In this document: in pieces, positions 36,810 through 50,569 of the stretch
How positions within the stretch are numbered: the stretch's first letter is position 1
Layout of the letters: each line of letters opens with the position of its first letter
From: the human T2T-CHM13v2.0 reference genome, Homo sapiens
Reading direction: 5' to 3' (one strand)
DNA length: 64,000 bases
NCBI RefSeq assembly: GCF_009914755.1
Contig: NC_060926.1
The notes under the pieces: model-generated
The model's input: only the letters and a program-made list of their open reading frames with translations
Told to the model about the DNA's origin: nothing
Database searches by the model: none
Translations under genes and position numbers: made by a program

Positions 36810-39825
<3,016 letters not shown>

Positions 39826-40814
39826 CTTTCAAAATTATTTTGAATGAAATAATTCATGGAATACATCACTACAAAGTCAGCCTTGAATACAATTTATTGA
39901 CTTAAATATAGCTAAATTATTTTAAAAATTGGTAGACTCTTAGACTCCCGTCCACCCTTGGTCTCAAAAGAGATACCTTTTCATAGACATAGAATACCCT
40001 GACATATGGAGAGCCCACCACTTCCACAGTACCATGGAATCAGGGGAATTATCCAAATAGTGGTTTCCTTGTTGTACCCTAGGCAGGGACAGTCAAGAAA
40101 ACTTCATGGATCTGTAGTGTAAAGCTAGGGAGAAAGAGGAAGAGTTGCCTGTTTGAATTTCTGTAACTAGCGTATCTCCAGATAATGCATGAACAGCCAG
40201 TAAAGATGAACGCAGATTATTGATGGAAAGAACACACATGGAGAAGAGAAAAAGCAAGTCCACAGAGCTTTTTAACATACACTCCCTCACCCCTACCCCC
40301 AGCTTAGAAGGGCAGGAACCTGCTGTCCAAAACAGGAAATATAGGAAATACCAGCTGAGAAACTGTCCACTTGACGTCCATGAGCCCAGCTGCCCCTCTC
40401 ACCTCACTCCTATTTTAAGTCAGTGACACACAGTCATGCTTTCCTTTTCTGCACCTGAAGGAGTGATGTCACTCCAGACTGAGTCCTTATTAGAGGTGAT
40501 GATGGAGTTATTTTTAGACCTGGGAATGGTCTAAAACATTTTGCCTCAGCCTAATCATTGGATCCTTCAAGGAAATGGATATTCTGATGCACATCCCACC
40601 CGGTGTCCTATCAAATGGAACCTTAGCTCTCAGGCAACTTGTTAGTTTGAAGGCAGTGACAATGAGGCCAAGAATGACTCCTGGCTCCTCCACTCTGCCA
40701 TCACAGGCTGCACCCAGAGCCTCCCACATCAGATTGTACCCACCGTGCCAGTGGAAGTGATCTCTAAGTCAAGCTATTCCTGCCCTCTCTAGCCTACTTT
40801 CTCTGGGAGGCATT

Positions 40815-41680
40815 AGAACACAGTCAGATCCCGAGAGTCCAGACCTGGATTCTATTGCTTTGTAAGCTAGGTCTTTGGGCAAATTACTTCTCTAGGCTTT
40901 TGTTTCCCGGTCTACATAAATGAGACGAATTCATGGTTATGTGGACTAAGTAAAAAGTTGTAGGTACAAAGTTCCCCTGGTGCTGGCAGTGGGGAGTGCT
41001 CCATAATCTCTAGCCATTGCTATTGTTATTCTCAGCGTGCTGAAAGCACTTTCATGTATGCTGTTTCACTTGATCTTTTTTAAAAGGACTGTACATGTTT
41101 TAATTAATTTAATCTTCTGTATAGTTTTATGAAGAACACACTCTTTTGACCTCATTTAACAGCTAGCCATATAACTAATAAGTGATAGAGGTAAGATTTA
41201 AAGAGAGTCTGGTTTCAGAGAACATTCTCTTGATCACTGTATACAAATATTATTCCAACCATAGTGTAGGCTCTTCTGGTCTTACCCTTCCTATGAGAGA
41301 GGGGTTATTGTCTCCATTTCATAAATGAAAGCAGTAAGAGTCAGAGCAATTCACTGAGCTGACAAGTCATAGGATCACTGAACAAGGGCTCCAGTGGCAG
41401 TGCCTGGGAGTGGCAGAACAAATAGCACAGTATCACATACAACTGCAGCAACAGCAGCAGTACCCGCAGCAAGTACAATGACACATTTACTACACACTTG
41501 CTCTCATTTAATACTCACAAGAATTATGGCCTCTGGGTTCTATCATCAACACCATTGCAGATGAGGGGACCAAAGTTCAGCTGGATCAAGGAAGGTGTTC
41601 AGGGGCATAGAGCTAGGGAGTAATGGAGTTGGGTGTCCCCCTGGTCTACCATGCCCAAGCTGTGCCTCAGCTTCTGTGCT
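40815..41680. mobile_element. Cluster of MIR fragments
   Basis: tttgggcaaattactt, ccatttcataaatgaaa, ttgcagatgaggggaccaaag cores. Confidence 0.65.
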
Positions 41681-43424
41681 GCCATCTCCTGCAGCACTTA
41701 AACAGAACCCCTAAGAACAACTAGCAGCACTTGCCTGATCAATGTAGCCAACAGAAGGAGGACAACCTATTTTTCATAGATTTTTTGGGGGATTTTCTAT
41801 TTAAATAATCATGCTGCCTAAAAAAGGAGACAGTTTCATTTCTTATTTTCCAATGAGCATGACCTTTATTCCCTTTTCCTGCCTTATTGCAGTGGCTAGA
41901 ACTTCTAGTACTGTGTTTAATAAGACTGATGAAAGTAGAAATCTTTGCCTTGTTTTGGATTGTATAAGGCAATGTATTCTGTCTTTATCATGAAATACAA
42001 TGTCTGATGTAGTTTTTTAATAGATGTTCTTTATGAGGTTGAGGAAGTCTCCCTCTATTCCTAGTGTATTTGAGAGGATTTTCTATTTTCATCATTAATG
42101 GGTGTTGAATTTTGTTAAATAATTTTTTGTTGCCAACTGCTATGATTATATGGTTTCTCTTCTTTAGCCTGTTGCTATGATAAATTTTATTAATTTCTTT
42201 TCAAATATTGAATCAGCTTTGTCTACCTGGCATAAATTTCACTTGGTCATGGTGCTTTAGTCTTTTTATACATTGTTGGATTTTGATTAATTACATTTGA
42301 TTGGTGGTTTTTACATCCAAAGTTCATGAGAGATATTGATCTGTAGCTTTCTTTTTGCATACTTTCTTTAGCTGGTTTGGGTATCAGAGTAATGACGGCT
42401 TCATAAAGAGAATTGGGAACTTCCTAATTTTCTCTTCTCTCCTATTTTCTGGAAGATACACATAGAATTGGCATTAATTTTTATTTGAATGTTTGGTAAA
42501 ATTCTTGGATGAAACCCTCTGGACCTGGAGATTTCTTTTTGGGGAGTATTTTTATTATAAATCCAATTCTTAGAAATATCTACACAGCTATTCAGATTAT
42601 CTGTTTCACCTTGGCTAAGTTTTAGTACTTTGTGGTTTTTGAGGAATTAGCCCATTTCTTCAAACTTGTTGAATATATGAGCATAAAGTTGATTACAGTT
42701 TTTAAATTATCTTTTTATAGCTAAAGACATCTATTGTGGTGTCCCCTATTTCATTTCTGATGTTGGTGATTCATGTCTTCTCTCTTTTTATATTTGCCAT
42801 TCTTGCTAAAAGTTATTAATCTTATTAATTCTTTTAAAGAGACAACTTTCTGTTTCATTTTTTCTTTTTCCAGTTTTCAAGTTCATTAGTTTCTGCTCTT
42901 TTTTATTTCCTCCTTTCTGCTTTCTTTGAGTTTATTTTGCTCAACTTTTCTAATTTCTTGAAGTAGAAACTTAGATTAGTAATTTGAGATCATTCCTCTT
43001 TTCTAATGTAAGCATTTACTCCTATCAATTTTATTCTCAGCACTGCTTTAGCTAATCTTACAAATTTTAACATGTCATATTTTCATGTTCATTCTTTTCT
43101 TGTCTTTTTAAAATTTCCTTTGAGATTACCACTTTGACGCATGGATTATTTAAATGTTTTTTGTTTAGTTTCCAAGGGTTTGGAGATTTGCCTATTGACT
43201 TTCTGCCTTGATTTCTACTTTGATTTTATTATGGCCAGGTAACATAGTCTGTATAATTTCAATTCTCTTGAACTTTTTAATGTTTGTTTTATGATCTAGG
43301 ATATGCTCTATCTTGGTAAATGTCTCATGGGACCTTTAAAAAAATGTGTATTCTGCTGTTGTTGGACAGATTGTGCTATGAATGCCAATTAGATCCTGTC
43401 AGTTGATGGTGTGGTTGAGTTTTT

Positions 43425-44218
43425 CTATATTCTTGCTGATTTTCTTGCTAGTAGTCCTAGAAGTCCTGAGTGCAGGGAGACAGCAGGGATTGATGCCTCA
43501 ACCACAATTGTGGATTTCTTCTTTCAGCTGTCTTAGTTTTTGCTTCAGACATGTGAAAGTCTGTTGTTTGGTTCATAGGTATGTAGAGAAAATGCTCACT
43601 AACTGTGTTTTTCTTTTACTGTCACACCACAATCATCAACACAGAAGAAAGGCCCAGTGACTCATGGGAAACTACTGTATTAAAAACTTGCAGCTAATGT
43701 TTTAAATTAACCAGAAAAAACACAAAAGTCAGAACACTGCACCAACAGATAGAGCCCTGTGCCTTTATAAAAGAAAAAAAATATTGCCTTCTATACACTC
43801 TCCCTCACCATAAAGATAATCCTCTGGTTTTCTCCTAAGTAACCAGAGAGTGGATACCCCACACCGCAAAAAAATAAAATTCTATTTGTTGAATATCTTT
43901 TGTCTTAAAGATAACAGCTCAGGAAAAATAGACTGCACTTAACATGATTTATGTCATTCCTTTTTTGTGCCCTTATACGATATGAAGAAAGGCTTCTGTG
44001 TTGATGTTGTCATGGTGTGACAGCAGAAGAAAAACACAGCTAGGGAGAGTTTTCTCTACATACCTATGAACCACACAACAGACTTTCACATATCTGAAGC
44101 AAAAACTAAGACAGCTGAAAGAAGAAATCCACAATTGTGGTTGGGGCATCAATCCCCCACTGTCTCCCCACACTCAAGACTACTAGGACTACTAGGGAGA
44201 AAATCAGCTAGAATATAG
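43425..44218. repeat. Inverted repeat: arms 43425-43647 and 43993-44218
   Basis: Arms are reverse complements at ~90% identity by manual alignment; ORFs 43382+ and 43973- share GLMPQPQLWISSFSCLSFCFR. Confidence 0.97.
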
Positions 44219-44890
44219 CAGCGGACACCAGCTGGGTGTCCTCCAATGCAGTTCTGACACTATCTACCCAGAGATAGAGTCAGATCCCACAGGTTGAAGG
44301 TTCAGCCCCCAAGACTGCCCCCATACACACACCAGTTGTAAGTCTGGGCCTCCACAACTTCTGACTAGCCAGCTTCAAGGTGGGGTTCCCATGACCCCCT
44401 CTTTGGGTTTGATTAATTTGCTGGAGCAGCTCTCAGAACTCAGAGAAATGCTTACCTATGTTTACGGGTTTATAATTAAAAAATATTGCAAAGGAGACAG
44501 ATGAAGAGATGCCTAGGGTGAGGTATGGAGAAAGGGTCACGGAGCTTCCATGCCCTCCCTGGGTGCACCACGCTCCAGGAACCTCCACATGTTCAGCTAT
44601 CTGGAAGCTTAACAACCCTGTCCTCTTGGCTTTTTATGGAAGCTTCATGATGTCAGCATTCCTTCCCCCAGGATATAGGGTGGGACTGTCTCATGGGAGG
44701 GTCTTAAGATCCACAATGAGAAAGGCAGAAAGGTGGGAGAACATTAGAGTGAAAGGAAGGCAGGAGAAGGTCAGAGGCCTGTCCCTGAGGCCTAACACCC
44801 CCAACAATATAACAAAAGACTCTAACACGGGATGTGGGAGTTATGAGCCAGGACCCATGGATGAAAGCCGACATATATCATAACATCACA
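43582..44890 (-). mobile_element. MER21-family LTR carrying the complex insertion
   Basis: tgtttttcttttactgtcacaccacaatcatcaacacagaag then cagcggacaccagctgggtgtcctcc...gtcagatcccacaggttga...ataacatcaca. Confidence 0.75.
43652..43983 (+). repeat. Direct copy of 46521-46849
   Basis: gcccagtgactca...ccttata(c/t)gatat aligns end to end at roughly 88-90% identity. Confidence 0.97.
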
Positions 44891-46520
44891 ACAGGAGAGC
44901 TACATCTTCTTGGTGAATTAATTCTTTTTGTTATTATGTAATTTCCCTCTTTGCCTATAGTAACTTTCTTTGCTCTGAAGTCTGCTTTTTCTGATGTTAA
45001 CATAGCCACTTGTGCTTCCTTCTGACTAATGTTTACACGTTATATCTTTTTCCATCAATTTGCTGTCAGTCTACCTATATCATTGAATTTGAAGTGAGTT
45101 TCTTGTAAACAACACATAGCTGGGTCATGTTTTGTAATACACTCTGCCAATCTCTGCATTTTAATGGATGCATTTAGAACATTTACATTTAAGATAATTA
45201 TTGATATATTAGGACTAAGTCTGATATTTTATTATTATTTGTTCTCTGATTGATCCTTTTGTTTATTACACTTTTGTTTCTTTTTTCTTGCCTTCCTGTG
45301 GTTTACTTGGACATTTTTTGATGTTTCATTTTGATTTAATTGTGATTTTTTTTTTCGGCATATCATGTTATGTTGTTTCCTTAGTGCTTATTATGTTTGG
45401 AAACTCTGTAGATGGACAGCCTTCCATGATGGGGAGGAAGCTGCAGGGCCTGGGTCTCCTTATGCCACTGGATGGAGTCTGGGGAGACACAGGGCTTCAC
45501 AGTGGCTGCTTCTGTGGGTGAATTAGGCCATGTGCTGTGTCTAAGTTGTGGACTGGGGGCCAGGACTGTCCAGGGCTTTGCTGCTGCTACTATTGCTGCT
45601 GATGCCACTGCTGGCAGATCAATCTCTCTGCAAGGACCCTGGGTTGTACAAAACAGGGGCTAGAGCTTCCTACTGGGTCTCTGTTGGGGCTCCCCTTTCC
45701 TGAACTTTGGCCAAAGACAACAGGATATTCTTGGGGGTTTTGTTGTTGTTTTGTTGTCATTTTTTCTGTGCCTGTTGGTGATTCCAGCACAGCCCAGCGT
45801 ATATGGGAGACAAAAAGAAAACTTAGAAAACTTACCATGTTGCTGTTACTCAAGTCCTGAGGTTTCTTGCAAGTACACCTTTTCTTCTAGCTTTCAGAGC
45901 CCTTTATCATTGTCTGCTGAATAGTTTCCAAGGTACTTAGTTGTATTTAGAGGAGCAGAGCAGGGAAAAATGAGTTTAACCATCTTGTTCCAGAACTGGA
46001 AGTCGGCAGAGCCTGTTTTAAAAATAATGTTTAAAACAAATTTTATTTCGTGGGTGATTTTCCAGAAAGCAGAAAAAGTACTATCGATGGCACTTCCTAT
46101 AATAAAAACTACACCCTATGCTTTCTTGGAAGGAATCAATTGCATTATTCAACAGTCGTCTTCCTCTGAACCTGCTCTGCATTTAGTCAACAGGATATTG
46201 AATTCCTTTTAAAAATCTAAACAGATTATCACTTCTTTCCTGAACCAAAAGTTGATTAGTAATGTAAATACTTGTCTGTAACACAGAAAACTGTGTTTTC
46301 TTTGAGCTCTTCCTATTCCGTATCCCTTGTCTTGAATGAGGAGTTTTTCCTTTGGCACCAAAAGGTTACAACTACATTTATCTACAAATAAACTACCATA
46401 GAAGAACTGGAACTTTCCTAATTATCAATGTTTAGCTGCACTAATAAAGCTTTCTTATATCTGTGTTCTCCTTGTTTCTTGTCTTGGACCCTTGCCTGAC
46501 ACAGATAGGATGGGCTTTCA

Positions 46521-46849
46521 GCCCAGTGACTCACGGGAAACTACTACATTAAAAACTTGGAGCTAATGTTTTAAATTAACCAGAAAAAAACACAAAAGGC
46601 AGAACACTGCACCAATGGATAGAGCCCTGGCCCTTTATAACAGAAAAAAAAATACTGCCTTCTATACACTTTCCTTCACCACGAAGATAATCCTCTGGTT
46701 TTCTCTTAAGTAACCAGAGAGTGGACCCTCCCACAAAAAACAAGTTCAATTTGTTAAATATCTTTTGTCTTAAAGATATAGCTCAGGAAAAAGTAGACTG
46801 CACTTAACATGATTTATGTCATTCTTTTTTTGTGTGCCTTATATGATAT
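46521..46849 (+). repeat. Probable donor of the 43652-43983 copy
   Basis: Embedded in non-repeat AT-rich flanks with no visible junction. Confidence 0.9.
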
Positions 46850-47864
46850 CTCATGACTTGGAAAACTCCTATAAATATGTAAAATATTAGAATGTATAGC
46901 AAAAAATTGTCAGTTTACGTTATTTTTGGCTTATCTCAGTACAAAGATTAATGTGGTAAAATTGAATATTTATATCCTTAAGATAAAATTGAATGTTCCA
47001 ATGTGAAGTAACATATTTTCAACTACATTTTTTTTTTCTGAAATCCCTTTATCACCACAAACTCTATCTTTAAAAAAAAAAAAAAGTTCACAACATATAC
47101 CATTTTCTGGCTCTACATGAAAAGTTTATTGTTTGTGTGCAGGGTTAAAGAGAAGCCAATAAGTTAACATGTTATATTTGACATGGGAGCTGTTCACTCC
47201 AAATTTTAAGAAAAGCCAGAAAAATCACGTACAGGCAACCAACCAGAGCGTTAAAATGGCCTTTTGTTAATTGTTAAAAATCTGTATAGAAGTACATTTT
47301 TTTTTAATTTGTAAAAGTGGAAGCAATTTGAGTCACTTTAATTTACAGCATGAATGGAAGATTCTCGGAGTCATCTATAACCTCAGCAGAAAATGTGATT
47401 ATAAAAGTTTATAAAAACCCCAGTTCCCCAGAGAGCTATGAAATGAGCAGAGTGCAGAACATATTCTATCAGTCTCTTGAAATATTATTTGCCCTCTTAA
47501 CTGATAAGGCAATGGAGGAAGAAAGTAAGAATGTAATACAAATATGAAAAAGTGACTACCTTTGCCTGCCTTCAACAAACCTAACTTTAAATAAAATAAG
47601 AATAATGAACAAATCAGCTAAAAAAGAAAACAGCTTTTCCCCTAGTTTCTTTTGAAGTGAATCTCCCTTTACTTTTTTTAAATTTCTTGGAATCCTACAA
47701 ATTAAGGCTTCCTTGGAAATGAATGAATTTTTTAGAATTTCAAGACTCAAAAGATAAACAAAGAAGTCTGTTTTTCTTCTCTCACCCACCCCAACCCTGT
47801 GAATAACCCCAGGTTACAGCCTGGGTTTCCCTCTGTTCTTTATGTCTATCAGGGGTTTTAGAGC

Positions 47865-47943
47865 TGGGGAGGTCAGTGGGGGAAGGATGGGGAAGAGGGG
47901 GAGGTGGGGAAAGGAGGGAGAAGGGGAGAATAAGTGGGGTGGG
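47865..47943 (+). repeat. G/purine-rich tract with G-quadruplex potential
   Basis: At least 8 runs of three or more G separated by short purine-rich linkers. Confidence 0.6.
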
Positions 47944-50569
47944 CTCATCTCAGAGTGAACCTCGGCTGTAGCTGGGTACAGGATGTCACACGCATGCCTG
48001 CACACACAAAATGTACACAGTGAAACCGGGCAATAGAACTATTAAAAAAAAAAAAAAGAAAGAAAGAAAGAAAGAAAATGTACTGCTACATCAGCTAAAA
48101 ACAGTCGTGTTCTTTCCTGGTTTGATGTCAGCTCCCAGTACTGGCTTGGAATTGCCCACAGCGATCTTGGGCCCCTGCCCACTCAGCAGGCAGACGGCTT
48201 TCCCTGCCAGCAACAGGCTTTTAATAAAACAGGATGCTGTCCCACTACTAAGGCCCAGCCTGAGAATGGATCCCAGTCCGTGTGAACTCCCTCTCCAAGA
48301 AACAGCAGTTCTGTGTTCCTTATCAGGAAACCCCACTTTGGCGTTCCTGGCCTGGGAGAAAGGCCCCTCTCCCAGGGACTTGCTCAGCAAGTGTTTGCAG
48401 GCAGCCGCTGGCCCCTGGAGCTGTCTGCTCTGCAAGGTTCTCACCACAGTGAGCTTGCTCCCGCAGGGACTTCTCATTCTGTGCGTGTGTTTCAGCTTTT
48501 AGGAAGGCTCTGTCTGACTTTGATAGTCAAGCAGGATGGGATTTAAAATAAGGAGCTGGCTTCTACAGGCAGGATGAGGACATTTCGCCCCTATCTTCCT
48601 GCAGCAAACCCCAGTGAGTCACGCCAGGACTGCACTTGAACTGACTTCTCATCTTAAGTGTGAAGAGTTTTATCATTTTGGGGAGGCTCACCCGTCTATT
48701 TGTTTACTTCTCATTTGGAATGAAATGGAGTATGTTCCATTTGGAGCAGCAATTTCTAATTTTTTTCCAGCTGCAGTTTGACAAAAGTCCAAACTAAGGA
48801 GTAAGATTCCACGGCACCTTCCAAACCCTGGAGCTCCATGGCTGCAGAGCCCAGGACCACCTTTCCTTGGCTGTATACCACCCTCTTGTCCTAGGGTAGA
48901 AGAACTGTGATTCTGAAAGTTGTCCCAGAGTATTAGCCCCAGCCCCACAGGCACCAGCAGGATCCCTTTCGTGCCACACTGTCCTGTACAGAGGTGGCCG
49001 AGTATAGCATGACATCACAGACTGGGAGACACACATGCTGTCAGGAAGTGGACTTAGATGACATCCTATGACAGTGAATTCCAATGGGAAAGAGAAGTCA
49101 TTGTTGTTGATAGAGAAGGCTGGACAACCTGGATTCTACCCCCAAATCTGCCCTGACTTCCTGTGTGGCCTTAGACAGCTTGATAGATGTGTGACTCAGT
49201 TTCCCCATTTTGTAAAACACAGAGCAGATTGTTAAAGGACGGGCAAATAACTAGCTCATATGCTGTCACTCCCCCTTCCCTCATCCACTCAGACATTGGG
49301 AATCACTCCCAGCACTTTTCTTCCTGTGTCCAGATGTGACAACCCAGTCAGCCACAACCAAACGATCAGAGACAGCCCTGGGAGCAAAGGCTTGTGATGG
49401 TTTCTAAGGCTTCTTCCAACTCTGACCATCCATAAGTCCCAGTCTAAGCCCAATACATTTCTGTTTACTTTGAAGTTCTGGGGAGGAAATTGGAGGAATT
49501 GGTGTTACAGGTGGTGTTTTCATTCCTTCTCTCACTGGAAGGTTGTGAGTTTGGAAAAGAAAAGGAGAAAGAGGAAGTACATGGAGGGAACATCTGGGCA
49601 TGTAGATGGTGTCACAGTGGAGAATTTTGTCTCCTGGACTGCAGCCCAGATCCACCTCAGAACAGCGGGGGCCTGGCAGGAAGCAGGAAGTGCTGGCCCA
49701 AAGCTGGGAAGAGCAGAGCATGCTGCAGGAGGCCAGCCCATGAGACCAGAAAAAGTGCAATTGGTAACTTCAGAGGGAGGAGTGAAAAGAGCCCAAGTAA
49801 ATCTATAAAGCCAGGGAAGATAGAGCACAGCACAGGAATATGAGCTAGGACTCTTGAAAGCAGAAGGAACGACCCTTGCTGACTCAAGCAGGGAGGGGAA
49901 TGAATTGGAAGCTATGAAGGAGCTTGTGAGGTCAACAGGGGTGCTGGATTCTGAGCTGGAGAACCAGGTTCAACTGGGACAAGAGCGCTCCACCATCAAG
50001 CGCCTCTACAGGGAACAAACAGCCTGCTGTCCCTCCCCCTGGGACCACTCAGCTCAGCTCAGCTCAGGACCACCCTGGGGCAAGGGAGGAGACACTGTGG
50101 ACAACTTTCCACTTCCACGCAGGGGGAAAAGCACCTGGATTTACCATGAAGACGGCGCCCAGTGAGAGAGTAGTGCCACAAAAGGACATCGAATTGGGGA
50201 AAGAAGAGGCAGTGGATTCCAGGCTGCTGAAAAAGCAATGCCCGGCACTGTGTATAACACAGAGGTGTCACACACAACCACAGCAAGTGACCAGACCAGG
50301 TCAAGAGTCAGAGAAGTTAGCAAGCAAACATTAAATCCAATCCAGCAGGCCTGTGGGACAAAGTTAGGAGTAACTCCAAGGTCATTTGCCAGGTGTGGAA
50401 ACCCATCTGGGAGGCTCAGTGGGGTCAGAGGGTAAAGACAAGGCCGATTAATTACCAGCTCTCAGGAGCGAGCTGAGTGGAGCATGTGGAGGAGTGCAGA
50501 GGATGTCGCAGGCAAGAGTCAAGGTCAGGAATGTTCAGACCGAGATGAATGAGGGAATAAAAGCAGGCA

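What the first reader, a model, noticed from the sequence alone, without database searches (positions are those of the whole stretch)
43644..43993. Palindrome tip opened by a locally templated ~330-bp insertion flanked by a 10-bp direct repeat
Seen: the spacer 43652-43983 is a direct copy of unique sequence at 46521-46849. It is bracketed by GAAGAAAGGC at 43644-43653 and 43984-43993, which covers the hairpin loop, and has a 2-bp GC microhomology at the left junction. It has no poly-A tail or transposon termini. Established: long palindromes extrude cruciforms and are stabilised by changes at their centre. Inference: a staggered cut at the tip was repaired by copying nearby DNA, turning an unstable palindrome into a spaced inverted repeat. 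The similar divergence (~10%) of the arms and of spacer versus donor suggests one multi-switch event (FoSTeS/MMBIR-like) or two events close in time.
Basis: partly seen in the sequence, partly recalled or inferred. Interest (0 to 1): 0.8.

Follow-up and report, generated by a model that had tools for sequence, protein, structure and literature searches.

The report
Fold-back palindrome opened by local patch
An old retroviral LTR in a human lncRNA intron carries the scar of two DNA-repair accidents: a fold-back copy that made a 225-bp-arm palindrome, and a 330-bp patch copied from 2.9 kb away that split its tip, which is a tidy natural example of known mechanisms and not a new kind of element.

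Summary
The spacer 43654-43983 copies 46523-46849. It is bracketed by GAAGAAAGGC at 43644-43653 and 43984-43993, the only two copies of that 10-mer in the window. It sits at the centre of an inverted repeat, 43425-43647 against 43993-44218.

New here:
- The spacer is low-copy in the genome: 4 places, 2 in the window and 2 in a 99.4% identical segmental duplicate on the same chromosome.
- The arms are the first ~70 nt of a solo LTR (43581-44892) plus ~155 nt of the old L1 that the LTR split.
- None of the 23 other LTR copies aligned has an insertion at the site. Many carry a short native inverted repeat there (CACAGAAG, short loop, CTTCTGTG).
- In the window, 29-39 native LTR bases after that motif are replaced by a ~216-nt inverted copy of upstream sequence. 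It rejoins the LTR at a 2-bp microhomology (AG).

The palindrome was therefore born by fold-back copying seeded at the mini-repeat. The patch then entered its 5-nt loop with a 10-bp duplication.

Arms and spacer/donor are equally diverged (8.1% and 8.0%). The order of events and the tip-nicking step are inferred, not shown. No outgroup genome was available.

The parts
42301..43580 (-). Old L1 fragment, 3' side of the LTR insertion point (ORF2, endonuclease to early reverse-transcriptase region).
   Evidence: The stop-as-X translation of 41400-43653 minus strand matches human L1 ORF2p residues 124-544 (8uw3_A, E 6.2e-40). For 19 of 26 L1 copies, the alignment to the window stops at 43569-43589. 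Of the other 7, 1 runs to 43615 and 6 stop earlier.
43576..43580 (.). Left flank repeat of the LTR insertion (ATAGG).
   Evidence: Read. Its partner ACAGG lies at 44893-44897, a 4 of 5 match. L1 coordinates in other copies are contiguous across the LTR.
43581..43653 (+). 5' end of a solo LTR (dispersed repeat, family name not determined). It forms the inner part of the left arm.
   Evidence: It aligns to the first ~75 nt of 23 other copies of the repeat.
43425..43647 (+). Left arm of the inverted repeat, the template. It comprises ~155 nt of L1 plus ~67 nt of LTR.
43640..43647 (+). Left half of the native mini inverted repeat (CACAGAAG).
   Evidence: It is the only complement of the 8-mer at 43993-44000 within 43000-43992.
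43644..43653 (+). Left copy of the 10-bp duplication GAAGAAAGGC: 4 nt of stem, the 5-nt loop AAAGG, and 1 nt of stem.
43654..43983 (+). Spacer: the derived copy of 46523-46849. Its start is ambiguous by 2 nt (GC).
   Evidence: It is absent from this site in 23 of 23 other LTR copies.
43984..43993 (+). Right copy of the 10-bp duplication.
43993..44000 (+). Right half of the native mini inverted repeat (CTTCTGTG). It is the last native LTR bases before the fold-back copy.
44001..44216 (+). Inverted copy of 43425-43639. It replaces 29-39 nt of native LTR.
44217..44218 (+). AG shared by the end of the inverted copy and the resuming LTR (2-bp junction microhomology).
   Evidence: LTR homology starts at 44217 in 19 of 28 copies, and at 44218-44226 in the other 9. 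Arm homology ends at 44218.
44219..44892 (+). Remainder of the solo LTR.
   Evidence: 3047 candidate places in the genome, of which the 40 scored are 77-82% identical apart from the window itself and its paralogue. 28 copies align to 44217-44895.
44893..45394 (-). The same L1 continuing on the 5' side of the LTR, beginning with the flank repeat ACAGG.
   Evidence: 23 L1 copies match from 44893-44950 to as far as 45394, at locus coordinates that follow on from the left part.
46521..46849 (+). Donor: the original copy in low-copy intronic DNA, with no flanking direct repeat.

Best explanation
The structure is the scar of two DNA-repair or replication errors in a primate ancestor. They acted on a solo LTR that had earlier inserted into an old L1.

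Step 1, the sequence path is shown and the enzymology is inferred. A 3' end terminating in CTTCTGTG (now 43993-44000) folded back onto the native complementary 8-mer CACAGAAG, 5 nt upstream. It was extended for ~216 nt along its own upstream sequence, through the LTR start into the L1. It rejoined the LTR ~33 nt further on at a 2-bp microhomology (AG). The result was a near-perfect palindrome with ~225-bp arms and a 5-nt loop. This could have happened at a resected double-strand break (snap-back synthesis) or at a replication fork (a four-point template switch).

Step 2, the product is shown and the order and the cut are inferred. The palindrome broke at its tip with ends overlapping by 10 nt (8 nt if the GC came from the donor). 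This is as expected if both extruded hairpins were nicked beside their loops. The left end primed on GC at 46521-46522, 2.87 kb downstream, and copied ~327 nt. The product was joined without microhomology to the filled-in right end. The join duplicated GAAGAAAGGC and turned the palindrome into an inverted repeat with a 340-bp gap.

The spaced form has persisted since then. It was later copied whole by a segmental duplication.
For: - The arms are LTR plus L1. L1 ORF2p matches at E 6.2e-40. For 19 of 26 L1 copies, the alignment to the window ends at 43569-43589. Downstream of that point the window scores like a shuffle against L1 (2.8 against 3.1), while L1 copies score 27.5 against each other. 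L1 resumes at 44893-44950 in 23 copies, at contiguous coordinates.
- 43581-43653 aligns to the 5' end of 23 other LTR copies, and none of the 23 has an insertion there.
- The mini inverted repeat is native to the family. The 4+4 core is present in 14 of 23 copies and the full 8+8 in 4 of 23. In the 14 copies with a recognisable site, 29-39 nt lie between it and the base aligned to 44217, and those bases are missing in the window.
- The palindrome is younger than its parts. In the L1 part of the arms there are 23 shared differences from the majority of 20 L1 copies, against 2 + 2 private and 5 unresolved. In the LTR part of the arms, 7 of 57 identical sites are shared differences. The rest of the LTR is 65 of 657 from the majority of 24 copies.
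- Arm differences that could be polarised in the LTR part, leaving out the loop, are split evenly: 4 left-derived and 4 right-derived. This fits divergence over time.
- The 10-mer occurs only at the two borders and contains the loop.
- The spacer has 4 places in the genome.
- Arms and spacer/donor have the same age: 18 of 222 against 26 of 323, p = 1.
- The paralogue has the same structure at 99.36% over 8006 columns.
- From papers, passages read: inverted repeats of 5-9 bp with 3-12 bp spacers seed snap-back duplications in yeast, and longer spacers lower fragility (PMC7999016). Cruciform transition is impaired by spacers, and a 52-bp spacer abolished fork stalling in COS-1 cells (PMC3300023). 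Rearrangements of primate X palindromes concentrate at the centre of symmetry (PMC8327919).
Against: - No orthologous locus, polymorphism data or reads could be examined, so the unspaced palindrome was never observed and the order of the two steps is not shown.
- The final sequence is equally produced if the patch came first.
- The right spacer junction has no microhomology, so it says nothing about priming.
- A ~216-nt fold-back tract is far longer than the templated inverted insertions described in yeast, 'most ~5-34 bp' (abstract of PMC11724301 as listed).
- Arm differences are uneven: 10, 2 and 9 in segments of 74, 94 and 55 nt. Chi-square gives p = 0.009 on a partition chosen after seeing the data. 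This may be a gene-conversion tract. If so, the arms are older than they look and the equal-age argument weakens.
- 'Shared differences' from the majority of copies may in part be subfamily differences and not age.
- The two key papers on centre-break revision were not held. What they report about insertions is therefore recalled only.
Confidence: 0.6

Rival explanations
1. Patch first, fold-back second. A 330-bp templated patch with a 10-bp duplication happened to land between the two halves of the native 8-bp inverted repeat of the LTR. Later, a 3' end at CTTCTGTG folded back across the 344-nt gap onto CACAGAAG and made the right arm. In this reading no unspaced palindrome ever existed.
For: It gives exactly the present sequence. 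CACAGAAG at 43640 is the only complement of the terminal 8-mer in the 1 kb upstream. It would therefore still be the pairing partner with the spacer in place. Spacer/donor divergence (26 of 323) is not lower than arm divergence (18 of 222).
Against: It needs a coincidence: an insertion into a 5-nt loop that only later becomes the centre of a fold-back. An 8-bp stem closing a 344-nt loop is a poor primer compared with the 3-12 bp spacers reported for snap-back seeds (PMC7999016). This argument is inference only.
Confidence: 0.15
2. One purely replicative multi-switch event (FoSTeS/MMBIR-like) with no break at a hairpin tip. The nascent strand left the LTR at 43653 and copied 46523-46849. It returned 10 nt back, copied to CTTCTGTG, switched to the complementary strand for ~216 nt, and then returned to the LTR at AG.
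For: Arms and spacer/donor are equally diverged. Three of the four junctions carry homology: GC, the 8-bp inverted repeat, and AG. Iterative template switches are documented for human inverted rearrangements (titles and abstracts of PMC11293582 and PMC10766183).
Against: It needs four switches. One of them, at 43983/43984, has no microhomology. It also gives no reason why the 10-nt re-copy should straddle the future centre of symmetry. This argument is inference only.
Confidence: 0.13
3. RNA-templated insertion. A piece of transcript from 46521-46849 was reverse-transcribed and inserted, either by L1 machinery (class 1 templated sequence insertion) or as a cDNA patch at a break (class 2).
For: The donor lies in an intron of a transcribed lncRNA gene (hub annotation). 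The donor's left border follows a pyrimidine-rich stretch ending in CAG, which looks like a splice acceptor on the + strand. Templated insertions from intronic sequence are described, and the donor site stays intact (PMC5110952).
Against: Class 1 needs a poly(A) tract and a TTTT/A-like nick site, and neither is present in either orientation. Class 2 is defined as lacking target-site duplication (PMC5110952), but a 10-bp duplication is present. The right donor border shows no splice-donor or poly(A) signal.
Confidence: 0.06
4. The spacer is a mobile element (a non-autonomous DNA transposon or similar) that inserted with a 10-bp target-site duplication.
For: It has a flanking direct repeat.
Against: There are only 4 places in the genome, that is 2 loci copied by one segmental duplication. 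By contrast, the same search returns 1059 and 3047 candidates for the neighbouring L1 and LTR. No terminal inverted repeats are seen. The donor copy has no flanking repeat.
Confidence: 0.02

Closest known systems
Fold-back (snap-back) priming at short inverted repeats, synthesis-dependent MMEJ, and the four-point template-switch model.
   Same: A short native inverted repeat (8 bp, 5-nt loop) sits exactly at the switch. The adjacent sequence is copied in reverse complement. The return junction has 2-bp microhomology, and a short native stretch is replaced. Passages read: PMC7999016 and PMC5453318. Abstracts read: PMC5728401, PMC2943611 and PMC10622511.
   Different: The copied tract is ~216 nt. 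That is much longer than the short events these models were built on, and much shorter than the chromosome-scale fold-back duplications. The event is fixed in the germ line and tens of millions of years old.
Centre-break or hairpin-nicking revision of long palindromes (Akgun et al. 1997; Cunningham et al. 2003).
   Same: The change lies exactly at the centre of symmetry. It converts a palindrome into a spaced inverted repeat, which then stays stable.
   Different: Only citations of these papers were seen, and the papers themselves were not held. The passages that cite them speak of deletions. Here the outcome is an insertion, with a duplication of the loop and a 330-bp patch copied from nearby.
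Templated sequence insertions (TSI/TSIP classes 1 and 2).
   Same: A few-hundred-bp copy of non-repetitive genomic sequence is inserted, the donor is left intact, and one junction has microhomology (PMC5110952).
   Different: It fits neither class. It has a duplication of at least 5 bp, as class 1 does, but no poly(A) and no TTTT/A site. It lacks those features, as class 2 does, but class 2 has no duplication. The donor is 2.87 kb away on the same strand. An RNA origin is not indicated.
L1 5' inversion by twin priming.
   Same: An L1 segment is present in both orientations next to an L1.
   Different: This was tested and rejected. The centre lies ~65 nt inside the LTR, not at an L1 end. The two arms cover the same L1 positions. 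They share 23 differences from other L1 copies.

Membership tests
Fold-back / snap-back templated inverted duplication | A short inverted repeat at the turning point, present before the event. | tested here: met
   CACAGAAG, AAAGG, CTTCTGTG in the window. In other LTR copies the 4+4 core is present in 14 of 23 and the full 8+8 in 4 of 23.
Fold-back / snap-back templated inverted duplication | The new sequence is the reverse complement of the sequence directly upstream of the turning point. | tested here: met
   44001-44216 against 43425-43639. The whole arms are 89.9% over 227 columns.
Fold-back / snap-back templated inverted duplication | Return to the original template at microhomology, with native sequence replaced. 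| tested here: met
   AG at 44217-44218. 29-39 native nt are missing.
Centre-break palindrome revision | A long unspaced palindrome existed before the change. | tested here: inconclusive
   Removing the spacer and one 10-mer gives a hairpin of -218.9 kcal/mol with a 5-nt loop. No genome carrying that state could be examined.
Centre-break palindrome revision | The rearrangement is centred on the axis of symmetry. | tested here: met
   The duplicated 10-mer contains the 5-nt loop.
Centre-break palindrome revision | Nicking of extruded hairpin tips by a structure-specific nuclease. | not testable with these tools
   This is inferred from the 10-nt overlap of the two ends only.
L1-mediated insertion (class 1 templated sequence insertion) | Target-site duplication of at least 5 bp. 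| tested here: met
   The duplication is 10 bp.
L1-mediated insertion (class 1 templated sequence insertion) | A poly(A) tract at the 3' junction. | tested here: not met
   Neither end of the spacer has an A-run or a T-run.
L1-mediated insertion (class 1 templated sequence insertion) | Insertion at a TTTT/A-like endonuclease site. | tested here: not met
   The implied nick sites read CTTC/T and AGGC/T. The definition is taken from PMC5110952.
Class 2 templated sequence insertion (patch at a break) | No target-site duplication, with end-joining features at the junctions. | tested here: not met
   A 10-bp duplication is present. Microhomology is 2 bp at one junction and 0 bp at the other.
DNA transposon / MITE | Terminal inverted repeats and many dispersed copies. 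| tested here: not met
   There are 4 places in the genome, that is 2 loci copied by one duplication. No terminal inverted repeats are seen.
L1 twin-priming inversion | The inversion junction was formed during retrotransposition, at the L1 5' end, joining different L1 segments. | tested here: not met
   The centre is in the LTR. The arms cover the same L1 segment and share 23 differences from other copies.

The most novel reading that the evidence does not exclude
The 10-bp duplication is a germ-line footprint of cruciform processing in a primate. Its borders record where the two extruded hairpins were nicked. The nicks fall 4 nt and 1 nt into the stem on the 5' side of each loop, which leaves fillable 5' overhangs. 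The locus would then be a natural, datable record of a whole palindrome life cycle. The palindrome was born at an 8-bp mini-repeat, was cut at the tip almost at once, and was stabilised by a patch copied from 2.9 kb away. If so, loop duplications flanking the spacers of other inverted repeats could be used genome-wide to map past cruciform cleavage.
Probability: 0.3. Interest if true: 0.6.

Novelty: new member of a known kind. Interest (0 to 1): 0.4.

Why it matters
Long unspaced palindromes are almost absent from mammalian genomes, and they are rearranged within a generation in transgenic mice. Natural records of how they arise and how they are defused are therefore scarce.

Here thousands of sister copies of the same LTR serve as the 'before' state. 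Both steps can be read to the base: the seed motif, the copied tract, the replaced bases, the junction microhomologies and the duplicated loop.

The patch combines a target-site duplication with no retrotransposon signs. That places it between the two published classes of templated insertion. The locus has no evident function; its value is as a worked example and as a search image.

Tried and rejected
- L1 origin of the palindrome. My first idea was that the palindrome was made when the L1 inserted, by cDNA snap-back or twin priming. I rejected it. L1 homology ends ~65 nt before the centre. The inner arm is LTR. The arms share 23 differences from other L1 copies.
- Pfam scan. A scan of three stop-as-X frames of 38500-43653 minus strand gave 0 families. 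The same kind of translation did match L1 ORF2p in the PDB.
- Direct translation.
- Genome pattern scan. I scanned for an unspaced extension of the palindrome at this LTR site, 13 + 13 specified bases with up to 2 mismatches. It found 1 place on contig 1 that looks like the native site, and the reversed control also found 1. No second case was found, but sensitivity is low for copies ~10% diverged.
- Paralogue alignment. A MAFFT alignment of the window with the paralogue misaligned the last 1.6 kb. BLAST showed the two are collinear.
- The Fisher line used a guessed count of 30 of 325. I replaced it with the computed counts.
- Two papers on centre-break revision were not held.
- I did not run structure, complex or protein-homology searches, because nothing here codes for a protein.

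Full report
**What is there**

The window reads as the finding says. A 330-bp block at 43654-43983 is a direct copy of 46523-46849, 2.87 kb downstream. BLAST gives 88.9% identity over 334 columns, and the repeat finder reports five collinear blocks. The block is bracketed by GAAGAAAGGC at 43644-43653 and 43984-43993. These are the only two occurrences of that 10-mer in the 64 kb. Shuffles give a mean of 0.22.

Outside the two 10-mers lie inverted arms, 43425-43647 and 43993-44218, 89.9% complementary over 227 columns. I removed the block and one 10-mer in a script. The strand then folds as a single hairpin with 205 arm-to-arm pairs and a 5-nt loop, AAAGG, which lies inside the 10-mer. The energy is -218.9 kcal/mol, against -43.7 for shuffles.

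The left junction shares GC with the donor, and the right junction shares nothing. The block has no A-run or T-run at its ends and no terminal inverted repeat.

**Is the block a repeat?**

The human assembly is held. A search with the block found 4 candidate places, all scored. They are the two in the window and two at G000:C2:87.617-87.621 Mb. The tool warns that its counts are lower bounds. However, the same search returned 1059 candidates for the neighbouring L1 and 3047 for the neighbouring LTR. Dispersed families are therefore seen when they are present.

The second pair belongs to a paralogous block that is collinear with window 41111-49116 at 99.36% over 8006 columns. It carries the same arms, spacer and donor, with a few paralogue-specific differences: left arm 1, spacer 4, right arm 2, donor 2. 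Two independently assembled loci with the same structure argue against an assembly artefact. They also show that the spaced form outlasted a segmental duplication.

**What the arms are made of**

The minus strand to the left of the centre is an old L1. With stops read as X, it matches human L1 ORF2p residues 124-544 (8uw3_A, E 6.2e-40).

My first idea was that the palindrome dated from the L1 insertion. It does not.
- For 19 of 26 L1 copies fetched from the genome, the alignment to the window stops at 43569-43589. One runs to 43615 and six stop earlier.
- Beyond the stop, 22 copies were compared. They go on resembling each other (mean score 27.5, shuffled 7.4). The window resembles them no better than a shuffle does (2.8 against 3.1).

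The stretch 44217-44892 turned out to be another dispersed repeat, with copies 77-82% identical. I aligned the DNA upstream of 23 of those copies. It shows that the repeat starts about 110 nt before the base that aligns to 44217. Its first ~75 nt are the inner part of the left arm, 43581-43653.

The L1 resumes directly after the repeat, from 44893 onward in 23 copies. It does so at coordinates that follow on from where the left part stopped. The flanks read ATAGG and ACAGG.

So a solo LTR-like element, 43581-44892, sits inside an old L1 with a 5-bp flank repeat. No repeat library was available, so I did not name the family. The arms consist of ~67 nt of LTR plus ~155 nt of L1.

**How the palindrome arose**

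The other LTR copies give the 'before' state.
- None of the 23 has an insertion at the site.
- Many carry a short inverted repeat there. The 4+4 core is intact in 14 of 23 and the full CACAGAAG / CTTCTGTG in 4 of 23. The loop is 1-4 nt.
- In the 14 copies with a recognisable site, 29-39 nt of LTR follow before the base aligned to 44217.

In the window those bases are missing. In their place stands the reverse complement of 43425-43639. It starts right after CTTCTGTG and ends in AG, which is also the LTR's own sequence at the point of return.

This is the product expected of a strand that ended in CTTCTGTG. It paired with the only complementary 8-mer in the kilobase upstream. It was extended ~216 nt on its own sequence and rejoined the LTR by 2-bp microhomology.

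Whether this happened at a resected break or at a fork cannot be told from the product. Both models are in print. Inverted repeats of 5-9 bp with 3-12 bp spacers seed snap-back duplications in yeast (PMC7999016, passages). The four-point template-switch model describes the same geometry for short events in human and chimpanzee (PMC5453318, passages).

**Relative ages**

- In the L1 part of the arms, both arms share 23 differences from the majority of 20 L1 copies. Only 2 + 2 differences are private and 5 are unresolved.
- In the LTR part, 7 of 57 identical sites are shared differences.
- The rest of the LTR is 65 of 657 from the majority of 24 copies.
- The arms differ from each other at 18 of 222 aligned sites plus 3 gap events.
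- Spacer and donor differ at 26 of 323 plus 8 gap events. Fisher p = 1.
- With MAFFT's gapping the figures are 21 of 223 and 39 of 324, p = 0.40.
- Differences in the LTR part that could be polarised, leaving out the loop, are split 4 left-derived and 4 right-derived. This fits divergence over time and argues against a sloppy copy.

The order is therefore L1, then LTR, then arm and spacer at about the same time, then the segmental duplication.

There are two caveats.
- Shared differences may partly be subfamily differences.
- The arm differences are uneven: 10, 2 and 9 in segments of 74, 94 and 55 nt. This gives p = 0.009 on a partition chosen after looking at the data. It may be a gene-conversion tract, and that would make the arms look younger than they are.

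**How the spacer got in**

The duplicated 10-mer is native LTR sequence. It comprises 4 nt of left stem, the loop, and 1 nt of right stem. The two ends that received the patch therefore overlapped by 10 nt across the tip, or by 8 nt if the GC came from the donor.

I think the simplest reading is the following. The freshly made palindrome extruded and was cut beside the loop on both strands. The overhangs were filled. The left end primed on GC at the donor and copied ~327 nt. The product was then joined bluntly to the right end. The cuts, the filling and the priming are inference.

What favours a break at the tip is position. The fold-back fixes the centre at the mini-repeat, and a tip cut explains why the patch is exactly there. 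Spacers are known to suppress cruciform transition and fork stalling (PMC3300023; PMC7999016). Rearrangements of primate X palindromes cluster at the centre of symmetry (PMC8327919). The papers that proposed hairpin nicking and the centre-break mechanism were seen only as citations, because they were not held.

**Rivals**

- Patch first, fold-back across it afterwards. This gives the same sequence. It needs the patch to have landed by chance in a 5-nt loop, and it needs an 8-bp stem to close a 344-nt loop.
- One four-switch replicative event. This fits the equal ages. It has one junction without homology and gives no reason for the 10-nt re-copy.
- An RNA-templated patch. The insertion fits neither published class. 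Class 1 needs poly(A) and a TTTT/A site, both absent. Class 2 has no duplication (PMC5110952). The acceptor-like CAG at the donor's left border is noted but stands alone.
- A mobile element. This is close to excluded by copy number.

**Verdict**

The origin of the palindrome itself is a new part. The mechanisms are known ones, and the locus is a clean natural example with no evident function.

Noticed in passing
window 41111-49116 and L065 (G000:C2:87615500-87623500): This part of the window has a paralogue on the same chromosome that is 99.36% identical over 8006 aligned columns. Only 8 kb was fetched, so the extent of the duplication was not mapped.
   Followed up: partly
window 43499-43592 and its partner in the right arm: The middle of the arms has 2 differences in 94 nt, against 10 in 74 nt and 9 in 55 nt on either side. 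This may be an arm-to-arm gene-conversion tract.
   Followed up: partly
window 46470-46523: The donor's left border directly follows a pyrimidine-rich stretch ending in CAG, which looks like a splice acceptor on the + strand. The right border has no matching splice or poly(A) signal.
   Followed up: no
window about 38500-39500, minus strand: The stop-as-X translations show a run of lysine codons (an A-run) followed by a coiled-coil-like stretch. From memory it resembles L1 ORF1, so it may be a second L1 fragment. It was seen only in the printed frames and was not searched.
   Followed up: no
window about 41400-41760, minus strand: The L1 ORF2-like reading frame breaks off after the reverse-transcriptase motif region and is followed by G+C-rich sequence that does not look like L1 (frames printed). 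It is probably another insertion or a truncation.
   Followed up: no
L066 (G000:C1:231346177-231346203): This is the only other genomic match to the extended-palindrome pattern, with 2 mismatches. It reads like an ordinary copy of the LTR site and not like a second fold-back.
   Followed up: partly
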